Shown here piece by piece: positions 26,301 through 61,134 of a stretch of 64,000 nucleotides of DNA. The stretch's first letter is position 1; each line of letters begins with the position of its first letter. The notes beneath the pieces are model-generated. The model did not search any database. It was not told the DNA's origin and saw nothing but the letters and a program-made list of their open reading frames with translations. The DNA comes from a virus (taxonomy: Duplodnaviria > Caudoviricetes). The stretch covers positions 19,784-83,783 of the IMG/VR virus record IMGVR_UViG_3300024331_000061. One strand, given 5' to 3'. The position numbers and the translations under genes were made by a program.

Positions 26301-28819
26301 CAGCTAGCCAGCAGGATGCCATCTGGCTCATTGGCCAGGGCGATCTGCTTCAGGTCGGCCGCGATCTGCACGTTGAGCTGGTGGATCTGCGCCCGGAGCG
26401 ACGTGATCAGCTGCCCCCTGGTCGGGGCCTTCTTGCCCGCCGGTCCCTTCCTGGCCGGTGCGCCCTTCTTGGCTGGCGTGGCCGCCGCCGTCTTGCCGGT
26501 GGCCCCGGCCTTCTGGGCAGCCTTCGTGGTCTTCTGCTTGACCACCGTCAGCTTGGCCAGCTGCGCGGTGAGCAGCTTCAGCTTGGCCCGGTCAGCCTTG
26601 ACCCGCGCCCGGAGCTGCTGCTTGCTCAGGCCCGCAGATGCCGTCGTGCCGCCGCCTCCCCAGGTGCCGACCGGCGTCCGGGCCTGCGCCGGGTTGAACC
26701 CGGCCAGCTCGATCGCATCGAGCACGTCGCCCCAGCTGTGCGCGTGGGCTCGGGCCTGCTTGGCGCTCCAGTCCGCGCTGGTGGCCGCCGAGGCGGCCCG
26801 CACCTCGGGCCTGACGTTGCCGCCGCCAGCCGCCCAGCGCTTGGATGCGCCCCGCGCGATGGCGATGGCCTGGCTGAGCGTCTTGGCCCGGCCGGTGCGC
26901 AGCAGAGCCCTGGCGATGTTCTGGATGTACGGCGGCAGCTCCATGCCCTTGACGCCCCAGAGCCCCGGCCCGCCCGGCTTGCCGAACGGGTGCGGCTCGG
27001 TCGCCAGCCTGCCGGTGTCGGCGCTCAGCAGGATCGCGGCGTCGATGTCTTCCCAGCTGGCCTGGATGGTGGCCATGATGCCTTGCTTGATCTTGGCGTA
27101 GTAGGCGGGGTCCGCGATGCCCAGCATCTTGGATTGCGCCGGGCTGAATGCGGGCATGGACGCCAGCGCCTCGAAGTCCTGGATCTTCTGCGCCGCTGAC
27201 GCATCCCGCCGGTAGGTCCTGGCGTCCGCCGTGACCGCAGGCCCGTGCGAGTGGAGCTGGCCGGGGTGGGCCGCGTGCAGGTCCTCGTGCACCTTCACGA
27301 AGTCCTCGTAGGTGCGGGTCTCGCGGTTGAACCCGGTGCGGCCGGTGGGCAGCCCGAGCTGGTGGCCCTCCGCGATGTGCTTGATCATCGCTGCCCTGGT
27401 CTTGGGGATGCCGTGGAAGACCCAGCCGTGGCTGTAGCCCTTCGGGCCGGTCAGCTCGATCGCGTCGAGCACGTCAGCCCAGCTGAACTGGATGGTGGGC
27501 GGGCCTGGCGGCATCTCCAGGCTGCCGCTGGCCGACCAGGCGGCCACGTCGTTGTTCCAGCCCGCGACCTTCTTGCCGAACGTGGTGCCTGGTGTCGCCG
27601 CCTCTGCCTTCTTCGCCTTCCGGGCAGCCAGCTCCTGCTGGTATTGCAGGTCCCTGGCCCGGTTCTCGTGGATGTGCGCCAGCACGCTGTCCCCGCCCTC
27701 GCGGGCCACCTGCGCACTGCGCAGCTCACCCGCGATCTGCTGGGAGAGCTTGTCCTTCTTGACCCCGGCGGCGCGGGCACCGCGCTGGAGCTGGATGTTG
27801 GCGAGGACCTCATCGCCGCCCTCGCGGGAGACCTGGGCGGACCTGAGCCAGCCGTGGCTCCAGCCACCCGGTCCTACCAGCTCTACCGCTGCACCCGTTG
27901 AACTCGCCTGGATCATGGCCCGGCGGGCTCGTTCCTCGGCCACCAGCCTGTGCAGCTTGTGCTTGTGCCCCTCGGAGCTGAACATGTTGGCGAAGCCCCT
28001 GGCCTCGCGCTTGGACAGGTGCCTGCCGAACGGCTGGTTGAGCCGTCCTGCCGTCGCCTCCAGGGACGCCCCGGCCTCTACCTGCCGCAGCCAGCCGTGG
28101 CTCCAGCCGCCGGGTCCGGTCAGCTCGACGCCGCCAGCCGGGTTGGCGTGCTTCTGCCCGAGCTTGGCGAAGCCCTTGCGCCCGTACTTCTTCCGCCCGA
28201 TGTACGCGGCCAGCGCACCTGGGTTCCTCGCGCCCCTCTTGGCCAGCGCGCCCTTCAGCGCGCTGAAGTTCTTGCCGCTGCCCGGCTTGGCCCCGGCGAA
28301 CGTAGCCAGCCCGATCACGCCGTCGAGGTCCTCCCAGGACAGCGCCTTGAGATGCTGAGCCTGCGGGGAGACCGCAGGCGCGGCGGCGACGGGTCCTGGT
28401 GCACCATTCGGTGCACCGACGGGGACGGGCTGGCTGGACGGCAGGAACGTCTTACCGCTGGCCGCCGCCATCGCCCGCTTCTGCTCCATGAACCCCTCGT
28501 TGCGGGCTCGCACGTCATCGATGTCCTTGACGTTGAGCAGGTGCCGGTACGCCTGCTGCATGTAGAGCTTGGCTGCCATGTGGCCCTGGTCGTCGTGCAC
28601 GCCGTGGCGGGTGATCTGGAGCGGGGCGAAGCCCTCGATAGCGGCGTTCAGGTGCCGCCTGGCTCCCTCTGTGCGCCCGCTGTCCAGCTCGCGGGCAGCG
28701 TCGGCCAGGTGGTCGTGCACGCTCATGTCGGGGAAGGTCTGGGCCACCTGAGCTGCGAGCTTGCGGATGCCCGCGCTGGTGCGCTGCTTCATGGGGGTGG
28801 TTGGGGTGATCCTAGTCAT
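26300..28819 (-). CDS. Large basic putative capsid-internal polyprotein with repeated ELTGPGGWSHGW modules
   Basis: Start reassigned to ATG 28819 (ATGA overlap with the MuF stop); 839 aa; repeated SW-x-D-x-x-x-A-I-E-L-A linkers. Confidence 0.7.
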   Translation of the reverse strand: MTRITPTTPMKQRTSAGIRKLAAQVAQTFPDMSVHDHLADAARELDSGRTEGARRHLNAAIEGFAPLQITRHGVHDDQGHMAAKLYMQQAYRHLLNVKDIDDVRARNEGFMEQKRAMAAASGKTFLPSSQPVPVGAPNGAPGPVAAAPAVSPQAQHLKALSWEDLDGVIGLATFAGAKPGSGKNFSALKGALAKRGARNPGALAAYIGRKKYGRKGFAKLGQKHANPAGGVELTGPGGWSHGWLRQVEAGASLEATAGRLNQPFGRHLSKREARGFANMFSSEGHKHKLHRLVAEERARRAMIQASSTGAAVELVGPGGWSHGWLRSAQVSREGGDEVLANIQLQRGARAAGVKKDKLSQQIAGELRSAQVAREGGDSVLAHIHENRARDLQYQQELAARKAKKAEAATPGTTFGKKVAGWNNDVAAWSASGSLEMPPGPPTIQFSWADVLDAIELTGPKGYSHGWVFHGIPKTRAAMIKHIAEGHQLGLPTGRTGFNRETRTYEDFVKVHEDLHAAHPGQLHSHGPAVTADARTYRRDASAAQKIQDFEALASMPAFSPAQSKMLGIADPAYYAKIKQGIMATIQASWEDIDAAILLSADTGRLATEPHPFGKPGGPGLWGVKGMELPPYIQNIARALLRTGRAKTLSQAIAIARGASKRWAAGGGNVRPEVRAASAATSADWSAKQARAHAHSWGDVLDAIELAGFNPAQARTPVGTWGGGGTTASAGLSKQQLRARVKADRAKLKLLTAQLAKLTVVKQKTTKAAQKAGATGKTAAATPAKKGAPARKGPAGKKAPTRGQLITSLRAQIHQLNVQIAADLKQIALANEPDGILLAS

Positions 28820-29502
28820 GCCACTCGTACCAGCCTCCTGAACGACGCGCCGTGGGCGCTTGGCAGCATTCTCGCACCGATGTGCGCCGGACCTGGGTAA
28901 CAGCGGCAGTGCGGATGCACCGCGCCGGGCCAGCCGATCAGCGGGATGGCCGTGGCCTCGAAGTTCTTCCCGTTGGCCGCCTTGCACTCGGTGCTCGTGC
29001 GTGCGTCGAGCACCGTGTTCCAGCCGAGCAGGTTGCCGTAGGTCATGGCCGCCGAATCCACCTGGGCAGCTGCCTTCGCCCGGTTCCACATCGCGTCGAG
29101 ATGCTGGCCGAAGTACCGTCGCTCGCGCGCAATTGCATCTGCAAGCGCCTTCTGCAACGGCTGACCGTGGCTGCGGGCCTCGGTCAGGTCGCTAGTAACG
29201 CGGCGGCCAGCTGCGAGGGCGAACTGAGCCCGCCGCAGGTAGTTCTGCCGTGCGGTCGTCAGGGACGCGGAACCAGCGACCCCCGTCCTCTCCGGTGGAA
29301 AGCTCATCACCATATCCAGGACGGCCAGCATCGAGGCGGGTTGCACCTGGGACGTACGGAAGGACGGAAGTAGGCTCGTCAGGACCGCCATGGGTGTCAC
29401 CGCCGAGGCCAGCGCCGTGGCCAGGGCCGCGATAATGGCCGTATCTGTCGCCGTAACCGGCGAGGATGGCGGGGGCGGCGGCTGCTGAGCGGGCGTAGTC
29501 AT
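28816..29502 (-). CDS. Head morphogenesis protein (MuF / SPP1 gp7-like)
   Basis: W-x-T-V-L-D-A-R-T-x-x-x-C...G...P-x-x-x-HP-x-CRC motif; follows the portal gene. Confidence 0.85.
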   Translation of the reverse strand: MTTPAQQPPPPPSSPVTATDTAIIAALATALASAVTPMAVLTSLLPSFRTSQVQPASMLAVLDMVMSFPPERTGVAGSASLTTARQNYLRRAQFALAAGRRVTSDLTEARSHGQPLQKALADAIARERRYFGQHLDAMWNRAKAAAQVDSAAMTYGNLLGWNTVLDARTSTECKAANGKNFEATAIPLIGWPGAVHPHCRCYPGPAHIGARMLPSAHGASFRRLVRVA

Positions 29503-56569: not shown

Positions 56570-57021
56570 GCATCGGCGGCGACTGCATCCACGACATCCG
56601 GGCCGAGTGGTGCCTGGACTGCAACCCCCCGGCCGATCCTGTCTCCAACCCGCAGATCTGGGGCGAGCAGGCGTTCGAGGTCATCCCGGTGGATGACCCG
56701 ATCCCGCTGGCCGAGGCAGCTGACCTGGCTGGCTTGTCCGAGCACCAGTTCAGCACGGGCGTGGCCTGGCTCCGGGAGACCTACCCGGACCTGCCGCTGG
56801 TCAGCTCCCGCAACGGCCTCCAGTTCACGCTGGACGCCGATCAGGTGCTCCAGTTCCGCGCCGCCCGCATCCGCAGCTCCCTGACCACGGTCAGGCGGGT
56901 GATCCGGGGTGCGGTCCTGCCGTACATCAGGCAGGTCAACCCCTCGGCAGAGCGCCAGCTGGCGCGGCAGGCCAACCGCCTGTTCGAGGACATCCAGGAG
57001 CTTCTGGACATCCCCGTCTGA
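56566..57021 (+). CDS. Winged-HTH-like protein
   Basis: PLAEAADLAGLSEHQFSTGVAWLRE...; ATGA overlap. Confidence 0.55.
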   Translation: MSIGGDCIHDIRAEWCLDCNPPADPVSNPQIWGEQAFEVIPVDDPIPLAEAADLAGLSEHQFSTGVAWLRETYPDLPLVSSRNGLQFTLDADQVLQFRAARIRSSLTTVRRVIRGAVLPYIRQVNPSAERQLARQANRLFEDIQELLDIPV

Positions 57022-57083
57022 TGCACGAACCGGGTGCCCGCGCCTGCGGGCACCCGGCCGACGATCACGATAGAAGGAGAGAA

Positions 57084-57455
57084 ATGCCAACCCCGAGACG
57101 TATCAACCGAAGCTCCCCGTCGCTCTTGTCTAAGAGCGAGCAGGAAGCCTTCGTCAACGCGGTCGAGCAGCGCGATGAGGTCCTCAGGGGCCTGGAGGCA
57201 CTGCTGGGCGTCACCTGGGCTGATCTGAGCTTCGGTGAGAAGGTCAACGCCGCCCAGGCGTACCAGGAGAGCGGTCGCGGCGCTGCCGTCATGGCAGTAG
57301 CGGCCAGGGCCTGGCGGGACCTGGAAGAGCTGGGTGATGCCGCCACCGGCAAGATCAGCCTGGCTGACGAGCTGATCCGGGCTCGTGAGTACATCGACCA
57401 GCTGCGCGTCGAGAACGAGTCCCTGCGCCAGCAGGTGGCCAGGAGGGCATCATGA
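57084..57455 (+). CDS. Helical hypothetical protein
   Basis: Start reassigned to ATG 57084 after AAGGAG; C-terminal coiled-coil; ATGA-coupled to the Cas7-like gene. Confidence 0.6.
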   Translation: MPTPRRINRSSPSLLSKSEQEAFVNAVEQRDEVLRGLEALLGVTWADLSFGEKVNAAQAYQESGRGAAVMAVAARAWRDLEELGDAATGKISLADELIRAREYIDQLRVENESLRQQVARRAS

Positions 57456-58246
57456 GCGCAAGGGACCTGTTCCACGTCGATGATGCCTTCGTGACGTATG
57501 AGGCACAATTGCAGATCAGGGACTTCCTGGTCGGCGGCGTGCCCAGCGGCCCGAGCACCATCCGCAACTGGCTCCGCGCCAGGCTGGACGCCGGGGACAC
57601 CGAGCTGGAAGAGATCATCCGCGAGACGATGGCCGAGCGCAATAGCCCGATGAGCATCGATGAGCAGCTCACCCTGCTCATGGCATCGGATGCCAGCCCC
57701 TCGGTCAACGGATTCAAGAGAATGCCGACTGGTGAGCTGGCGTATGAATCCCGCTGCCTGAAAGGCGGGTTCAAAGAATGGGCCAATTCGGCTTATCCCG
57801 GATTGGACTGGGACGGGAAATGGGCGTCAAAGGACCCCGCTCCCGAGCCCGCTGCCGTTCCCGATCTCCCGGCCAAGGGAAAGCGCAAGCCCCCGGCGCG
57901 CAAAGCCGTATACGGCGTAGCGGGCCAGAAGGGCCTGCTGTCCACCGCAGCTGAGCGGGTGTTCTTCGACCCGCCGCTGATCGGCCTGGGCGTCACGGAG
58001 CCGAGCGCAGTAGAAGAGCGGATCAAGCGCGTTCGTCTTCCCGACGGCCGACCGGCATCCGCTATCTCCAGGGTCGAGGTGGTCGAGAAGCCGCTATTGA
58101 CCTTCGTGGTCAAGATCCGTGACAATTTCCTTTCCGATGAGGCATTGGGCAGGATCTGGATGACCGGCGAAGAAATCGGAATTGGCGCAGACCGCGCCCG
58201 ATCCGACGGGAGATTCGATTTGGTCTCCTGGAAAAGAATCTCGTAG
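57452..58246 (+). CDS. Solo Cas7/RAMP-like RNA-binding protein (Vipr-like)
   Basis: 264 aa; N-terminal beta strand, AYESRCLKGGFKE (RAMP helix-1-like) and C-terminal Gly-rich loop GIGADRARSDGRF-x-x-V; no other cas genes nearby. Confidence 0.7.
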   Translation: MSARDLFHVDDAFVTYEAQLQIRDFLVGGVPSGPSTIRNWLRARLDAGDTELEEIIRETMAERNSPMSIDEQLTLLMASDASPSVNGFKRMPTGELAYESRCLKGGFKEWANSAYPGLDWDGKWASKDPAPEPAAVPDLPAKGKRKPPARKAVYGVAGQKGLLSTAAERVFFDPPLIGLGVTEPSAVEERIKRVRLPDGRPASAISRVEVVEKPLLTFVVKIRDNFLSDEALGRIWMTGEEIGIGADRARSDGRFDLVSWKRIS

Positions 58247-58272
58247 TACCTTGTATCACTGATACGCCACGG

Positions 58273-58296
58273 GCCGGGCGTCGGGAGACGCCCGGC
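58273..58296. terminator. GC hairpin between the Cas7-like gene and the array
   Basis: GCCGGGCGTC-GGGA-GACGCCCGGC, a 10-bp stem. Confidence 0.55.
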
Positions 58297-58329
58297 TTGA
58301 TGTGGCTAACCAAACGCAATTTGACTTCC

Positions 58330-60245
58330 CCAGCCCTGTCACGTCAGGTCTCACCAAACCCGCCCGACTCGCCAGCCCCAGACGGATCAGGCCCCGCCTC
58401 GTCCTAGCCTCGCCAGCCCGACTAGCCTGCCCCTCGCCCCGCCATGTTCCGGCCGCGCTCATCTTCACGCCCCGCCAGCCCGACATGCCGCACCAGGCCC
58501 TTCCGTCCCGGACCGACTACCCGGCCCTCGCCTTAGCCGACGCCCAGCCCCGCCGACTTGTCGCGCCCCCCTCGTGTCAAGCCTCGTCCGCGCCTGCCCG
58601 TCCCTGGCCGCACCGACTCGCCAGTTTCACTATCGCGCCTCGCTCGCGTGCATCCTCGCGCCTCGCCTTCCCGACCACCCGCAACTCGCCTGCCCGCCCC
58701 CGAGCCGACTTGTCACCTCCTTGCCTTGGCCAAGCCATCACCCGCCGACAAGCCAACCCGAGCCGCCCCCGGATCGCCCCGAGCCGCTCCGTGCCCTGCC
58801 GACATGCCGCGTCATGCCATCTCGCGCCTCGCCCGGCCAGGTCTCACCGACTCGCCATCCCATGCCCCGTCAACCCGCGCCGACTCGCCAACTCCTGGCC
58901 CTGTCACCAGCGCACCGCGCCGATCCGTCCCACACCCACCCGACTCGCCGCGCCTGGCCGAACACGGACCTCGCCGTGCCCGTCCGACTTCCCCAGCCTT
59001 GGTCAGCTCCTTGCCGTATCAAGCCGACCACCCTTGCCTAGCCTCGTCAGCCCGTGCCGACTACCCACGAGCAGCCCCACCCATGAACGAGCCTGGCCAT
59101 GCCTCACCGACGAGCCGCGCCGTGCCCCGCCCTGTTCTCACCCACCCCTCATCAGACCGACTGGCCTTGGCCATGCCTGCCCTTGCCGCGCCCGTCTCAG
59201 GCCCCGCCGTGCCCGACCGACGTACCCTGCCTGCATCTTTCCGCACCTGACCATCTTGACTAGCCTTCCCATCGCCACGCCCACGCCACGCCTCGCCGCT
59301 CCCCGCCGACAGTCCGTGTCCCGTCAGATCACGCCTGCCCTAGCCATTCCGCACCGACTAGCCCAGCCTGCCCGCCTCACGCCCGGCCGCACCGACTTGC
59401 CTCGCCGCGCCGCCCCCTTCATCCAGCTCAGACCGACTGGCCGTCCCTCCCCATCCCGATCCGCTCCGACTCGCCATGCTCTAGCCGAGCCTGCCCGACT
59501 ATCCTCGCCTATCCGCGACCGAGCCAGGTCTTCCCACGCCGACTACCCGAGCCGCGCCTGCCCATCCCGACATGCCCCGCCCCGCCTCGCCATGTTCACT
59601 CCGGGCCATACCGACCATCCCTGCCTCTGTCTCGCCACCCCCAGCCGACTTGCCGTCCTCTGACCCGTGCCTGCTTCCTGCCCGGCCTAGCCCTCACGAC
59701 CCGTCAGTCCAGCTCATGTCCCGTCCCGCCGTCCCTCGCCCTGCCGACGCGCCAGTCCATACCACGGCACCCCTCTCCAGACCAGCACGACTTGCCTCGC
59801 CATGCCCCCGACCTCACCCGGCCCAGACCGACTCACCTCGCCTCCCCATCCCTATCCGACTCACCTCGTCAACCCTCCCCTTGACCGCCCGACTTCCCGA
59901 GCCTTCCCGTGCCGCGTCTCGCCGTCCCGACGAGCCTGATCACGCCGTACCTCGCCTGCCCGCACCGACTCGCCCGGCCACGCTCTGCCTCCAGCCCGGC
60001 CTTGCCTGATCGACTGGCCCAACCCAACCGATCCACACCTCGCCACGCCAGCCCGACCCGCCAGCCCGCAGCTCACCACGCCATCGCATGCCGACTGACC
60101 TCGCCTTACACCTCACCTGGCCCGACCCTGCCGACTCGCCAATCTCTCTGCCAGGCCCCTCCTTGCCGTCCCGAGCCTGCCCGACGGCCCAGGCCCGCCC
60201 GATCCGCGCCGGTAGCAAGCCAGCCCGGCAAACCTGTGCGACCCT
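58330..60245 (-). repeat. Array of ~40 pentamer-coded units (GG(Y)NN)n punctuated by GTC; putative guide-RNA array
   Basis: About 40 CCGAC (minus strand GTCGG) delimiters. Spacings cluster near 28, 33, 38-40, 44, 48-50, 54 and 58-62 nt, i.e. roughly 3+5n. GG is fixed at pentamer positions 1-2 on the minus strand. Confidence 0.85.
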
Positions 60246-60251
60246 GACTCC

Positions 60252-60584
60252 ATGGCACCAACCGAAAGCAAAGTGAAAGCATCGACCACCGCAGCTGCGA
60301 TCAGCGGCATGGGCTTGTGGCTGCTGGGGCGGTATGTATTTAAAGGTGCAGTACCTGATGTCGTCACCTCATGGACGTACGTCCTGGTGCCGGGCATCCT
60401 GGCCTGGGCAGCCGGGTACGCGGCGCACCATACGCATAGACCGGACCTGGAGGACCGATCGGCGGGGCTGCCTGGCATCGCCACCCTCGGAATCCCTCCG
60501 ACACGCCCTGTGACCAGGAATAACACCGAGCCACCGCCTGTTCCGGTGACCGAGGAAGGGGGAGCCCAGGCCCCTCCCGTGTAA
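60252..60584 (+). CDS. Putative holin
   Basis: E-x-KVKA-x-T-x-A-x-x...two TM helices...AGY-x-A-x-HT-x-RPD, typical of actinophage holins. Confidence 0.6.
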   Translation: MAPTESKVKASTTAAAISGMGLWLLGRYVFKGAVPDVVTSWTYVLVPGILAWAAGYAAHHTHRPDLEDRSAGLPGIATLGIPPTRPVTRNNTEPPPVPVTEEGGAQAPPV

Positions 60585-60624
60585 CCTGGCCGGATAGGAA
60601 ACGATGACGATGAAGGGAAGTCCG

Positions 60625-61134
60625 ATGGCTGTGCTGGTCGATGGACGTGAGATCGCAGGCGAGCTGGCCTGCCCGCCGGTCAGCACCGAGCTGGACGAGA
60701 ACGACCGCAAGCGTGACAGGTGGGTCACGTTTGAGCTGTACCGCCTGGACAACGGGGGCTGGCTGGCGCACCGGGTGGGGGAGTCGCGGGTCTACCACAC
60801 CCTGAACACGCGGTGCGTGACCAAGACCGGCCGCCCGAGCGGCGACCCGGCCGCCATCGGCCAGCTGCCCGATGACGCGGTGCCCTGCCCGAGGTGCAGG
60901 CCGGACTACCCGGAGAACCTGCCCGACACCGACGGGCCGGTGGCGAGGTTTGAGTTCGCCCGCCACACCTGGGACGAATGCCCGACCGCGTACCTGGTCA
61001 AGGAGAAGCTCACGACGATCAGGAGCCGCGACGGCACGACCAGCACGGTCACGTCCGATCCGGTCGGCAAGCTGCTGCGTGGCGCGGCGCGGAACTACCC
61101 CGAGTTCATCCCGCTGGTGACGCCAGCGGCATAG
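60625..61134 (+). CDS. Hypothetical protein
   Basis: RWVTFELYR...S-x-VYH...CPRC motifs; ATG 60625 follows AAGGGAAG. Confidence 0.6.
   Translation: MAVLVDGREIAGELACPPVSTELDENDRKRDRWVTFELYRLDNGGWLAHRVGESRVYHTLNTRCVTKTGRPSGDPAAIGQLPDDAVPCPRCRPDYPENLPDTDGPVARFEFARHTWDECPTAYLVKEKLTTIRSRDGTTSTVTSDPVGKLLRGAARNYPEFIPLVTPAA

What the first reader, a model, noticed from the sequence alone, without database searches (positions are those of the whole stretch)
57452..58246. Solo Cas7/RAMP-like gene in a phage with no CRISPR locus
Seen: RAMP-like signatures (AYESRCLKGGFKE; terminal GIGADRARSDGRF), with no cas1/2/3/5/6 and no CRISPR repeats in the window, immediately upstream of a periodic array. Established: Cas7 proteins polymerise along guide RNA with fixed nucleotide periodicity. 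Inference: it coats the array RNA one subunit per pentamer. This matches my recollection of recently reported phage VIPR systems (Cas7-ancestral protein plus GGY/NN RNAs), which I cannot verify here.
Basis: partly seen in the sequence, partly recalled or inferred. Interest (0 to 1): 0.85.

Follow-up and report, generated by a model that had tools for sequence, protein, structure and literature searches.

The report
Phage Vipr protein of VIPR system
This phage gene encodes a small Cas7-like protein of the recently described VIPR family, which sits beside a 1.9 kb array of five-letter-coded guide units. The kind is already known, but in this large clade it is unclear which DNA strand makes the guide RNA.

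Summary
ORF 57452-58246 (+) carries both quoted motifs. It folds as a single-domain Cas7-type RAMP (pLDDT 85.8), and its top matches are Csm3 and type VII Cas7 (VIA Z 11.9 and 11.0; Foldseek E 5e-7). The complete 83.8 kb phage genome has no Cas1, no other Pfam RAMP hit and no CRISPR-like repeat.

VIPR is real (bioRxiv 2026). A broad profile of this family matches the SUSP1 Vipr clade (hhalign E 2e-6, 132 columns), with the glycine-rich loops aligned. All 60-odd related loci with enough flanking sequence carry a pentamer array beside the gene. A conserved small upstream gene overlaps the vipr start in 33 loci and is a candidate accessory gene. A three-copy model gives a head-to-tail interface (ipSAE 0.50; best control 0.00).

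The guide strand is open. The canonical GG-Y-NN code reads only on the strand antisense to the gene. Gene packing, hairpins at the far end of the array and wobble pairs in a leader hairpin point to transcription of the sense, C-rich strand. My odds are about 55:45 for sense. No RNA data were available.

An earlier follow-up in this scan already called the array on this same window a VIPR array. I file this as a new member of a known kind.

The parts
57084..57455 (+). Small all-helical protein (123 aa from the gene caller's start; 144 aa from 57021). Its stop overlaps the vipr start (ATGA). Candidate vipr-accessory (vap-like) gene.
   Evidence: hhalign against the conserved upstream gene of relatives gives prob 81%, E 1.2e-5 over 107 columns. 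An HMM finds this gene overlapping or abutting the vipr start in 33 related loci. The closest Vipr relative shares a contig with a 67%-identical copy. AF2 pLDDT 69.5, helical. No Pfam, PHROG or fold match.
57452..58246 (+). Vipr-type minimal RAMP (Cas7-like), 264 aa. RRM palm, helical insertion (about residues 34-78), helix-1 (100-114), thumb beta-hairpin (about 186-212), glycine-rich loop (242-254). It also has a K/R/P-rich disordered insertion (about 125-158) that most relatives lack.
   Evidence: AF2 pLDDT 85.8. Foldseek PDB top hits are type VII Cas7, Csm3 and Cmr4 at E 5e-7 to 1e-4. VIA gives Z 11.9, 11.0 and 10.8. BFVD matches viral solo RAMPs at E 2e-12 and 1e-8. hhalign against the SUSP1 Vipr clade gives E 2.1e-6. 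A homotrimer model gives ipSAE 0.50 against 0.00 for controls.
58273..58296 (.). 10-bp GC-rich hairpin just after the vipr stop. It could be a terminator or a stability element.
   Evidence: Read directly from the sequence. Comparable hairpins follow the stop codon in L004, L007 and L009.
58287..58312 (+). Gene-proximal 'leader' motif, GACGCC...GGCTAACC. It is homologous to the conserved GCGAC-[hairpin GCCGY..RCGGC]-TAGCC element of relatives, which looks like a unit boundary with a hairpin inserted.
   Evidence: Found in 36 of 44 related loci scanned, giving 22 distinct variants. Stem pair 5 covaries (T:A, C:G, G:C). Wobble pairs are compatible with the + strand only.
58330..60245 (.). Array of about 42 abutting units, each GAC + (NN-S-CC)n on the + strand, equal to (GG-S-NN)n + GTC on the - strand. 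Units usually hold 5-9 pentamers and many have internal phase slips.
   Evidence: Pentamer positions 1-2 are near-uniform, position 3 is G 50% / C 22% / T 15% / A 12%, and positions 4-5 are CC.
60252..60584 (+). Next + strand ORF (110 aa, hydrophobic segments). It starts 7 nt after the array and is a neighbour, not shown to belong to the system.
   Evidence: No family hit.

Best explanation
The gene encodes the Vipr subunit of a VIPR-type RNA-guided system carried by an uncultured soil actinophage. The module is a small helical accessory protein (57084-57455), the Vipr RAMP (57452-58246) and a 1.9 kb array of about 42 guide units (58330-60245).

By homology with SUSP1 Vipr, protomers should polymerise head to tail along array-derived RNA, one per pentamer. 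Each would bury the fixed trinucleotide and expose the variable dinucleotide, which would then read double-stranded DNA of competing mobile elements with a one-base skip and silence it.

Shown here:
- the fold
- profile-level homology to bona fide Vipr
- the absence of cas genes and CRISPR
- the conserved pairing of gene and array
- the conserved upstream gene
- the pentamer statistics

Inferred: RNA binding, filament formation on RNA, DNA targeting, and the role of the upstream protein.

Guide strand (inferred, about 55%): the array is transcribed with the operon, so the guide is the C-rich sense strand. It would read 5'-GAC-NN-(SCC-NN)n, a non-canonical fixed trinucleotide. The alternative (about 45%) is the canonical GG-Y-NN strand, transcribed antisense.
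For: Fold:
- The AF2 model has pLDDT 85.8 and pTM 0.73.
- Every top Foldseek PDB hit is a Cas7-type RAMP at probability 1.0. Examples are 8z4j_J at E 5e-7 and 6xn3_F Csm3.
- The top 21 VIA-align rows are all CRISPR RAMPs. Examples are 9g9a_D (Z 11.9, rmsd 4.1 over 157 residues) and 8yhd_A (Z 11.0, rmsd 2.9 over 135 residues).

Family:
- 975 cluster representatives match at E<=1e-3, so the family is large.
- The broad profile A4 against the SUSP1-clade profile A3 gives prob 89%, E 2.1e-6 over 132 columns. It aligns helix-1, the thumb hairpin and the G-loop: G243=G174, G245=G176, R248=R179, G253=G183, F255=F185.
- I located the SUSP1 Vipr in KT454805. It carries the published residues H17, R138 and D177-W178-R179.

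Context:
- All 16 genome loci carry the gene next to the array. So do the cultured Microcystis phage Mae-JY09 and the metagenome and IMG/VR loci. About 33 of 48 diverse viral loci do too.
- The conserved upstream gene is described.
- The phage has no cas genes and no CRISPR.

Oligomer: ipSAE 0.50 (three runs: 0.43, 0.58, 0.50) against a best control of 0.00. This mark was reached by 20 of 30 solved homo-pairs and 1 of 23 single chains in the tool's calibration. Runs agree on at least 75% of contacts, and partner pLDDT is at least 72. The interface is heterologous: residues 113-117, 229-242 and 250-260 of one copy touch 1-13, 155-160, 168-175 and 221-223 of the next. Solved Cas7 filaments exist, so this pass may reflect likeness to them.

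Sense-strand sub-claim:
- In about 27 of 50 arrays the next + strand ORF, with a Shine-Dalgarno site, starts within 70 nt of the array end.
- In L065 and L070 the array fills the whole gap between an upstream gene's stop and vipr's own ribosome-binding site.
- GC-rich hairpins sit at the far end of the array in at least 8 loci.
- The leader hairpin can pair at position 6 in 15 of 22 variants on the + strand, against 3 of 22 on the - strand.
- The residues that read the two G's in SUSP1, D177 and W178, are replaced.
- Non-canonical fixed trinucleotides beside Vipr-like folds have been reported in 10.64898/2026.10.21.760802.
Against: - No RNA or binding data exist for this family.
- A narrow profile (A1) against SUSP1 or its clade is not significant: E 0.58 and 0.076. 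The sequence link depends on the broader alignment A4.
- No Pfam, PHROG or PDB sequence hit.
- No convincing natural target was found for any guide.

Against the sense-strand sub-claim:
- The G-rich strand reproduces the published order exactly. It reads GG, then a pyrimidine-biased position (C 50%, Y 62%), then NN.
- All published VIPR types are G-based, and types II, III and V were confirmed by small RNA sequencing.
- A strong hairpin separates vipr from the array in the window.
- An untranslated C-rich, G-poor RNA would be a natural Rho substrate (established knowledge; not tested here).
- Conservation of orientation across loci may reflect descent from one ancestral arrangement rather than independent evidence.
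Confidence: 0.85

Rival explanations
1. Canonical-code reading. The system is a VIPR in which the array is inverted relative to its gene. Guide RNAs are the G-rich - strand, (GG-Y-NN)n ending in GUC. They would be transcribed towards vipr from a promoter at or beyond the far end of the array, and would end at the conserved hairpin next to the gene.
For: - GG-Y-NN reads in the same 5'->3' order as SUSP1 vrRNAs, with C preferred at position 3.
- All seven published types use G-based repeats.
- On this strand the conserved gene-proximal hairpin would be a 3' tail, like the SUSP1 tail.
- A hairpin after the vipr stop could insulate the array from sense transcription.
- An earlier follow-up in this scan reached this reading.
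Against: - There is no room for a conserved - strand promoter. The array end abuts the ribosome-binding site of unrelated + strand genes in many loci, and abuts vipr itself in L065 and L070.
- No promoter-like site was found on the - strand.
- Hairpins at the far end of the array would then sit at the 5' end of the transcript.
- The leader stem would carry C-A mismatches on this strand.
- Sense transcripts needed to express the downstream genes would pair with the guides.
- In SUSP1 the arrays run in the same direction as their genes.
Confidence: 0.4
2. A stray Cas7 from a CRISPR system. The gene would be a captured or decayed subunit, for example a decoy that poisons host Class 1 complexes, and the neighbouring C-rich tract would be unrelated.
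For: - The best structural matches are CRISPR Cas7 subunits.
- A few family members weakly hit the Pfam RAMPs and Cas6 models.
Against: - Identity to any Cas7 is only 6-16%.
- No cas genes or CRISPR occur in the phage.
- The pentamer array travels with the gene across proteins of 26-100% identity and hosts from several phyla.
- The gene is under purifying selection.
- The family aligns better to Vipr than to any solved Cas protein.
Confidence: 0.03
3. An RNA-coating regulator rather than a DNA-targeting guide system. The protein would coat the C-rich untranslated tract to block Rho loading or to set the stability of the operon transcript. The variable dinucleotides would have no targeting role.
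For: - The array lies inside a co-directional operon and is C-rich and G-poor, the composition that Rho prefers (established knowledge).
- Some relatives have units of only 3-4 pentamers, which is too short for specific targeting (L096).
- No targets were found.
Against: - Positions 1-2 of each pentamer are near-uniform and differ between units and between loci, while positions 4-5 are fixed. That is the signature of a code rather than a mere binding track.
- Homology to a demonstrated DNA-targeting system.
- The array sequences are fully different among relatives.
Confidence: 0.07

Closest known systems
VIPR systems (Vipr protein plus vrRNA), type II of Escherichia phage SUSP1 and a Pseudomonas fulva prophage. 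Sources: bioRxiv 10.64898/2026.04.26.720920, 10.64898/2026.04.26.720927 and 10.64898/2026.10.15.759431.
   Same: - Phage-borne, with no cas genes and no CRISPR.
- A minimal single-RRM RAMP with a thumb and a G-loop.
- Profile-level homology (E 2e-6).
- An adjacent array with a 5-nt period, made of a fixed trinucleotide and a variable dinucleotide.
- A two-gene operon with a small accessory protein.
- A predicted head-to-tail oligomer.
   Different: - The protein is 264 aa, against 195 aa in SUSP1.
- D177 and W178, which read the G's in SUSP1, are not conserved.
- The accessory gene lies upstream, overlaps the vipr start, and has no detectable DNA-binding fold.
- Units are short (usually 5-9 pentamers) and abut directly, marked only by GAC/GTC. 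They lack individual tails, and about 42 sit in one array, against 4 vrRNAs in SUSP1.
- The GG reading lies on the strand opposite the gene, whereas SUSP1 arrays are GG and co-directional with their genes.
Divergent VIPR arrays: 'staggered arrays' and NNNGG/YNNNG/NNNNG repeats (10.64898/2026.04.26.720920), and non-canonical fixed trinucleotides GAC/NN, CAC/NN, WGT/NN and TGH/NN (10.64898/2026.10.21.760802).
   Same: - Abutting units in which the end of one marks the start of the next.
- A relaxed third position.
- A Vipr-like fold next to the array.
- GAC occurs here as the first fixed trinucleotide of each unit on the + strand.
   Different: I could not see the figures or data tables, so I cannot say whether this clade is one of the seven types or one of the 21 non-canonical clusters. 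The staggered arrays were not confirmed by RNA sequencing in the paper.
CRISPR Class 1 backbone subunits: Cas7 family (Csm3, Cmr4, type VII Cas7, Csf2).
   Same: - RRM palm, thumb hairpin and glycine-rich loop.
- Polymerisation along RNA with a fixed register.
- They are the best structural matches (Z 10-12).
   Different: - No Cas5, Cas6, Cas10, Cas3 or Cas1-Cas2, and no repeat-spacer array.
- A 5-nt rather than a 6-nt register.
- Sequence identity of 6-16%.

Membership tests
VIPR / Vipr | RAMP fold with a single RRM core, a thumb and a glycine-rich loop, and no second RRM. | tested here: met
   AF2 model with pLDDT 85.8. Foldseek and VIA top hits are all Cas7-type RAMPs. It is a single domain of 264 aa, with the G-loop at 242-254 and a beta-hairpin at 186-212.
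VIPR / Vipr | Sequence relationship to an experimentally characterised Vipr (SUSP1 / X1U2U4 clade). | tested here: met
   Broad family profile A4 against SUSP1-clade profile A3 gives hhalign prob 89%, E 2.1e-6 over 132 columns. The narrow profile A1 alone is not significant, at E 0.076.
VIPR / Vipr | Stand-alone or two-gene locus with no cas genes and no CRISPR array. | tested here: met
   The whole 83.8 kb virus record has no Cas1 hit, no Pfam RAMPs hit and no repeated 18-mer. Rfam finds nothing.
VIPR / Vipr | Adjacent tandem pentamer repeats with a fixed trinucleotide and a variable dinucleotide. | tested here: met
   130 NNNGG units in runs of at least four, against 15 +/- 8 simulated. The array is conserved beside the gene in relatives.
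VIPR / Vipr | The transcribed RNA carries GGY/NN. | tested here: inconclusive
   GG-Y-NN reads only on the strand antisense to the gene. Context favours sense transcription. No RNA-seq run was listed for this DNA, so the transcribed strand could not be checked.
VIPR / Vipr | Viral or proviral location. | tested here: met
   The genome is an IMG/VR virus record. Relatives lie in IMG/VR contigs, in a cultured phage, and in Streptosporangiales genomes, in what look like prophage regions.
VIPR / Vipr | An accessory vap gene in the operon. | tested here: inconclusive
   A conserved small gene overlaps or abuts the vipr start in 33 loci, and the window copy matches it at E 1.2e-5. It has no fold or family match. 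No published vap1-6 sequences were at hand for comparison.
VIPR / Vipr | Forms a ribonucleoprotein filament with one protomer per repeat. | not testable with these tools
   Only a protein-only model was possible. Three copies give a head-to-tail interface with ipSAE 0.50 against 0.00 for controls. The pass may reflect likeness to solved Cas7 filaments.
VIPR / Vipr | Base-reading residues of the SUSP1 G-loop (D177, W178, R179). These define the SUSP1 clade, not the whole family. | tested here: not met
   R179 aligns with the invariant R248. D177 aligns with A246 and W178 with D247. The broad family consensus is G-A-x-R-S-Q-G.
CRISPR-Cas Cas7 (types I, III, IV, VII) | Encoded with other cas genes next to a repeat-spacer array. 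| tested here: not met

The most novel reading that the evidence does not exclude
A very large Vipr clade (about 1,000 clusters at 50% identity) breaks one of two rules that hold in SUSP1. The clade spans phages with 46-70% GC. Either its guides are the C-rich sense strand, or the canonical G-rich guides are always transcribed antisense, inside tightly packed co-directional operons.

In the first case the guides would read 5'-GAC-NN-(SCC-NN)n, processed from the operon transcript. The protein would have switched from burying GG to burying CC while keeping the pentamer register.

The first option would be a 'mirror' VIPR code with a new RNA specificity. It would also carry a conserved 5' leader hairpin and a new accessory protein.
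Probability: 0.5. Interest if true: 0.8.

Novelty: new member of a known kind. Interest (0 to 1): 0.6.

Why it matters
VIPR is a months-old discovery proposed as the ancestor of CRISPR effector complexes and as a new programmable DNA-binding tool.

This locus extends it to actinobacterial phages with an unusually large guide library of about 42 units. It also anchors a clade of roughly a thousand protein clusters that share a conserved three-part module.

The clade poses a sharp and cheap question: which strand is the guide? If the sense C-rich strand is used, Vipr proteins can evolve new fixed-trinucleotide specificities. That would widen the design space for orthogonal programmable repressors. 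It would also mean that strand assignment by GGY motif search alone can mislead.

If the antisense strand is used, these systems show an unusual convergent layout whose promoters are still unknown.

Tried and rejected
**Sequence and structure look-ups**
- Pfam and PHROG scans of the protein found no family.
- A PDB sequence search with the narrow profile found nothing. The broad profile gave only a sub-threshold Csm4 G-loop match at E 0.11.
- hhalign of the narrow profile against the single SUSP1 Vipr (E 0.58) and against its clade (E 0.076) was not significant.
- Nucleotide search against phage records found no match.
- Rfam at gathering thresholds found nothing in the window. An E-value scan of three low-GC relatives found nothing relevant.
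- The tandem-repeat finder sees only fragments of the array, because units slip phase. A global Fourier period-5 signal is weak for the same reason.

- Sequencing runs: no RNA holder was listed, only three soil DNA runs. Laying their contigs showed a near-identical variant but too few array differences to test whether the NN positions are hypervariable.
A sub-alignment (A6) worked.
- My first use of the 'of' parameter with a locus id was an error.

**Target searches with the one-base-skip rule**
- In the phage's own genome plus related loci, the best-match fractions equal those of shuffled guides: 0.863 against 0.851.
- An exact scan of IMG/VR with the 9-pentamer guide at 58801 hit three homologous contigs, inside a small-terminase gene, with every skip base on a wobble position.
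- Their large terminase is nearest to Ralstonia-type phages, and about one chance hit is expected by my estimate. I treat this match as probably chance.
- The guide at 59308 gave 0 hits.
- A 10-pentamer guide from Nonomuraea rhizosphaerae gave 0 hits with up to 1 mismatch in 301 genomes of its order.

**Other**
- The promoter and terminator scan of 56900-60800 found no informative site on either strand near the array.
- Fold search for the upstream protein gave no match at E<=0.001.
- I first took the disordered K/R/P-rich loop (residues 125-158) for the thumb. I rejected this after the alignment with SUSP1 placed the thumb at the 186-212 hairpin.
Full report
**1. What is there**

It has no Pfam or PHROG family.

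It is followed by a 10-bp GC-rich hairpin at 58273-58296. After that comes about 1.9 kb that is roughly 50% C and 20% G on the + strand, without codon periodicity.

The whole genome is a single 83.8 kb IMG/VR virus record rated complete. It has no Cas1, no Pfam RAMP hit and no 18-mer present three times. Rfam finds nothing in the window. The gene sits in the early/replication block, with an HTH protein, DUF6192, a primase-polymerase and DNA polymerase I nearby.

**2. The protein is a Cas7-type RAMP**

A word-indexed search found 186 relatives of 43-75% identity. All are unnamed. Most come from metagenomes and from Streptosporangiales genomes.

An alignment of 36 relatives has invariant blocks at G28-G29-x-P31, N86-G-F-K-R, R101/K104/E109 and I242-G-x-G-x-D-R-x-R-x-D-G253.

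The AlphaFold2 model built on that alignment has mean pLDDT 85.8.
- Foldseek against the PDB returns only Cas7-type subunits at the top: type VII Cas7 8z4j_J at E 5e-7, then Csm3, Cmr4 and Cas7-11.
- An independent all-against-all structural search gives Csm3 9g9a_D at Z 11.9, type VII Cas7 8yhd_A at Z 11.0, Csm3 6ae2_B at Z 10.8 and Csf2 at Z 10.1. The first 21 rows are all CRISPR RAMPs.
- Among predicted viral structures, the best matches are other solo viral RAMPs at E 2e-12 and 1e-8.

The topology is an RRM palm with a helical insertion, a beta-hairpin thumb (about 186-212) and a glycine-rich loop before the last strand. A K/R/P-rich disordered loop (about 125-158) is absent from most relatives.

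Comparison with a near-identical variant in a second soil sample shows 11 of 12 substitutions on third codon positions. The gene is therefore maintained by selection.

**3. Is it a Vipr?**

VIPR systems are described in 2026 preprints. They consist of a minimal RAMP (Vipr), usually a second accessory gene (vap), and RNAs made of GGY/NN pentamers. They occur mainly in phages, and one protomer binds each repeat. The exposed NN read double-stranded DNA with one base skipped.

I located the SUSP1 locus in KT454805. The 195-aa protein at 28474-29061 (-) carries the published H17, R138 and D177-W178-R179. The YNNGG tracts lie on the same strand as the gene.

The narrow family profile does not match SUSP1 significantly. 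An exhaustive profile search then showed that the family is large: 975 cluster representatives at E<=1e-3. A broader alignment of 45 representatives matches a profile of the SUSP1 clade with probability 89% and E 2.1e-6 over 132 columns. The match lines up helix-1, the thumb hairpin and the G-loop: G243=G174, G245=G176, R248=R179, R250=R181, G253=G183, F255=F185.

The two SUSP1 residues that read the guanines are not conserved. D177 aligns with A246 and W178 with D247. The broad-family G-loop reads G-A-x-R-S-Q-G.

**4. The module is conserved**

All 16 genome loci carry a C-rich pentamer array directly after the gene. These come from Streptosporangiales, an Acidimicrobiales MAG and a Dormibacteria MAG at 26% identity. 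So does the cultured phage Mae-JY09 at 27% identity. Further metagenome and IMG/VR loci agree.

No flanking gene is shared with the window except one. That gene is small (about 125-145 aa), and its stop overlaps or abuts the vipr start in 33 loci. The window's copy (57084-57455) matches it at E 1.2e-5. It recurs at 67% identity, on a contig of the same length as the one that holds the closest Vipr relative. It is predicted to be all-helical with a C-terminal long helix, and has no recognisable fold or family. It is the natural candidate for the accessory gene.

**5. Array anatomy**

On the + strand each unit reads GAC followed by pentamers NN-S-CC.
- Positions 1-2 are near-uniform, which is notable in a genome of about 67% GC.
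- Position 3 is G 50%, C 22%, T 15%, A 12%.
- Positions 4-5 are CC.

In a trinucleotide/dinucleotide register, a unit starts with GAC and ends with SCC, so units abut with no spacer. About 40% of units are perfectly in phase, and the rest have 1-3 nt slips. Typical units hold 5-9 pentamers. A distant relative has only 3-4 per unit, with a conserved GACAATCC head.

At the gene-proximal end, most close relatives share the motif GCGAC-[GCCGY...RCGGC]-TAGCC. This is a unit boundary with a small hairpin inserted. The fifth stem pair covaries (T:A, C:G, G:C).

**6. Oligomerisation**

Three copies of the protein, modelled with the family alignment, gave ipSAE 0.50 (runs 0.43, 0.58, 0.50) against 0.00 for three controls. 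In the tool's calibration this mark was reached by 20 of 30 solved homo-pairs and 1 of 23 single chains. Runs agree on at least 75% of contacts, and partner pLDDT is at least 72.

The interface is heterologous. Helix 229-242 and the G-loop region of one copy pack against the N-terminus and strands 168-175 and 221-223 of the next. That is what an open-ended filament needs. Cas7 filaments have been solved, so the pass may reflect that likeness. It does not show binding.

**7. Which strand is the guide?**

In SUSP1 two rules hold together: the arrays run co-directionally with the operon, and the RNA carries GG. Here they conflict, because GG-Y-NN reads only on the strand antisense to the gene.

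*For the antisense G-rich strand:*
- The order GG, then a pyrimidine-biased position, then NN, is exactly the published one.
- All published types are G-based.
- A hairpin follows the vipr stop codon.

*For the sense C-rich strand:*
- In 48 diverse viral loci of the broad family (GC 46-70%), arrays are C-rich on the gene strand in about 33. This holds whether they lie downstream or upstream of the gene, and there is only one clear exception.
- In about 27 of 50 arrays a Shine-Dalgarno-preceded + strand ORF starts within 70 nt of the array end. These downstream genes are unrelated between loci, so a conserved - strand promoter has nowhere to sit.
- In L065 and L070 the array fills the entire gap between an upstream gene's stop and vipr's own ribosome-binding site. 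The sense strand must therefore be transcribed for vipr to be expressed.
- Strong GC-rich hairpins lie at the far end of the array in at least 8 loci. That is where a terminator of a sense transcript belongs.
- In the one exception, L075, the upstream array is inverted. Its leader-type hairpin still faces the gene and a strong hairpin still closes the far end, which is the same 5'-to-3' layout on the C-rich strand.
- The leader stem can form a sixth pair in 15 of 22 variants on the + strand (14 G-U, 1 A-U), against 3 of 22 on the - strand. The only wobble at pair 5 is also on the + strand.
- The residues that read the guanines in SUSP1 are replaced.
- An October 2026 preprint reports Vipr-like folds next to arrays with other fixed trinucleotides: GAC/NN, CAC/NN, WGT/NN and TGH/NN.

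*Cautions:*
- Conserved orientation may be inherited rather than independent.
- The sixth pair rests on conserved letters, not on covariation.
- A C-rich untranslated RNA would attract Rho.

I put the sense strand at about 55% and the antisense strand at about 45%. No RNA data could be obtained.

**8. Targets**

Using the one-base-skip rule, in-phase units gave no enrichment over shuffled controls in local sequence.

One 9-pentamer unit matched a small-terminase gene exactly in three homologous IMG/VR contigs, with every skipped base on a wobble position. Those phages look proteobacterial, and about one chance hit is expected by my estimate, so I do not count it. Two other long guides had no hit.

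**9. Verdict**

This is the Vipr protein of a VIPR-type system, not a stray Cas7.

The kind is already described, and an earlier follow-up in this scan had identified the neighbouring array on this same window. This report adds:
- the structural and profile-level evidence for the protein
- the conserved upstream partner gene
- the predicted head-to-tail interface
- the size of the clade
- context evidence that questions the 'antisense' assignment of the array

Noticed in passing
window 57824-57925 (residues about 125-158 of the Vipr-like protein): A K/R/P-rich, low-confidence insertion is present in the window protein and its two or three closest relatives, but deleted in most of the family. 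It could be an extra nucleic-acid contact or a linker.
   Followed up: partly
L019:1629-1654, L020:750-775, L021:1285-1310 (IMG/VR contigs): The 9-pentamer unit at window 58801 matches, under the one-base-skip rule, 18 of 18 specified bases in a small-terminase gene of three related contigs. All skipped bases fall on codon wobble positions, and one wobble difference is tolerated. The phages look proteobacterial, so this is probably chance.
   Followed up: partly
L077:3546-3735: In a 46% GC relative, a near-consensus promoter (TTGACA-17-TATCTT) precedes a roughly 150-nt region with three long complementary segments (10-14 bp). The region ends in a hairpin plus T-run, and lies between the Vipr-like gene's neighbour and the pentamer array. 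No Rfam match; the RNA is unidentified.
   Followed up: partly
L094:1400-1930: Perfect palindromic hairpins built around AATGGCCATGGCCATT recur three times, spaced about 260-290 nt apart, inside or beside the pentamer array of a 53% GC relative. They may be sub-array separators or processing sites.
   Followed up: no
L001:6890-6945: One unit in a Streptosporangium locus contains the pentamer AAGCC repeated 10 times in a row. This is either a low-complexity 'guide' or a replication-slippage product.
   Followed up: no
window 58180-58450, run X2: A second soil sample holds a near-identical phage, plus minor contigs that diverge right after the vipr stop. One of them carries the canonical GACGCCGTG leader motif that the window lacks. 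This suggests the gene-array junction varies within the population.
   Followed up: no
window 60252-60584: A 110-aa ORF with hydrophobic segments starts 7 nt after the array and has no obvious Shine-Dalgarno site. Its expression seems to depend on transcription through the array.
   Followed up: no
L023 and L049, just downstream of their arrays: The gene that follows the array in these relatives looks WhiB-like by eye (cysteine pattern). It is not homologous to the window's downstream gene.
   Followed up: no
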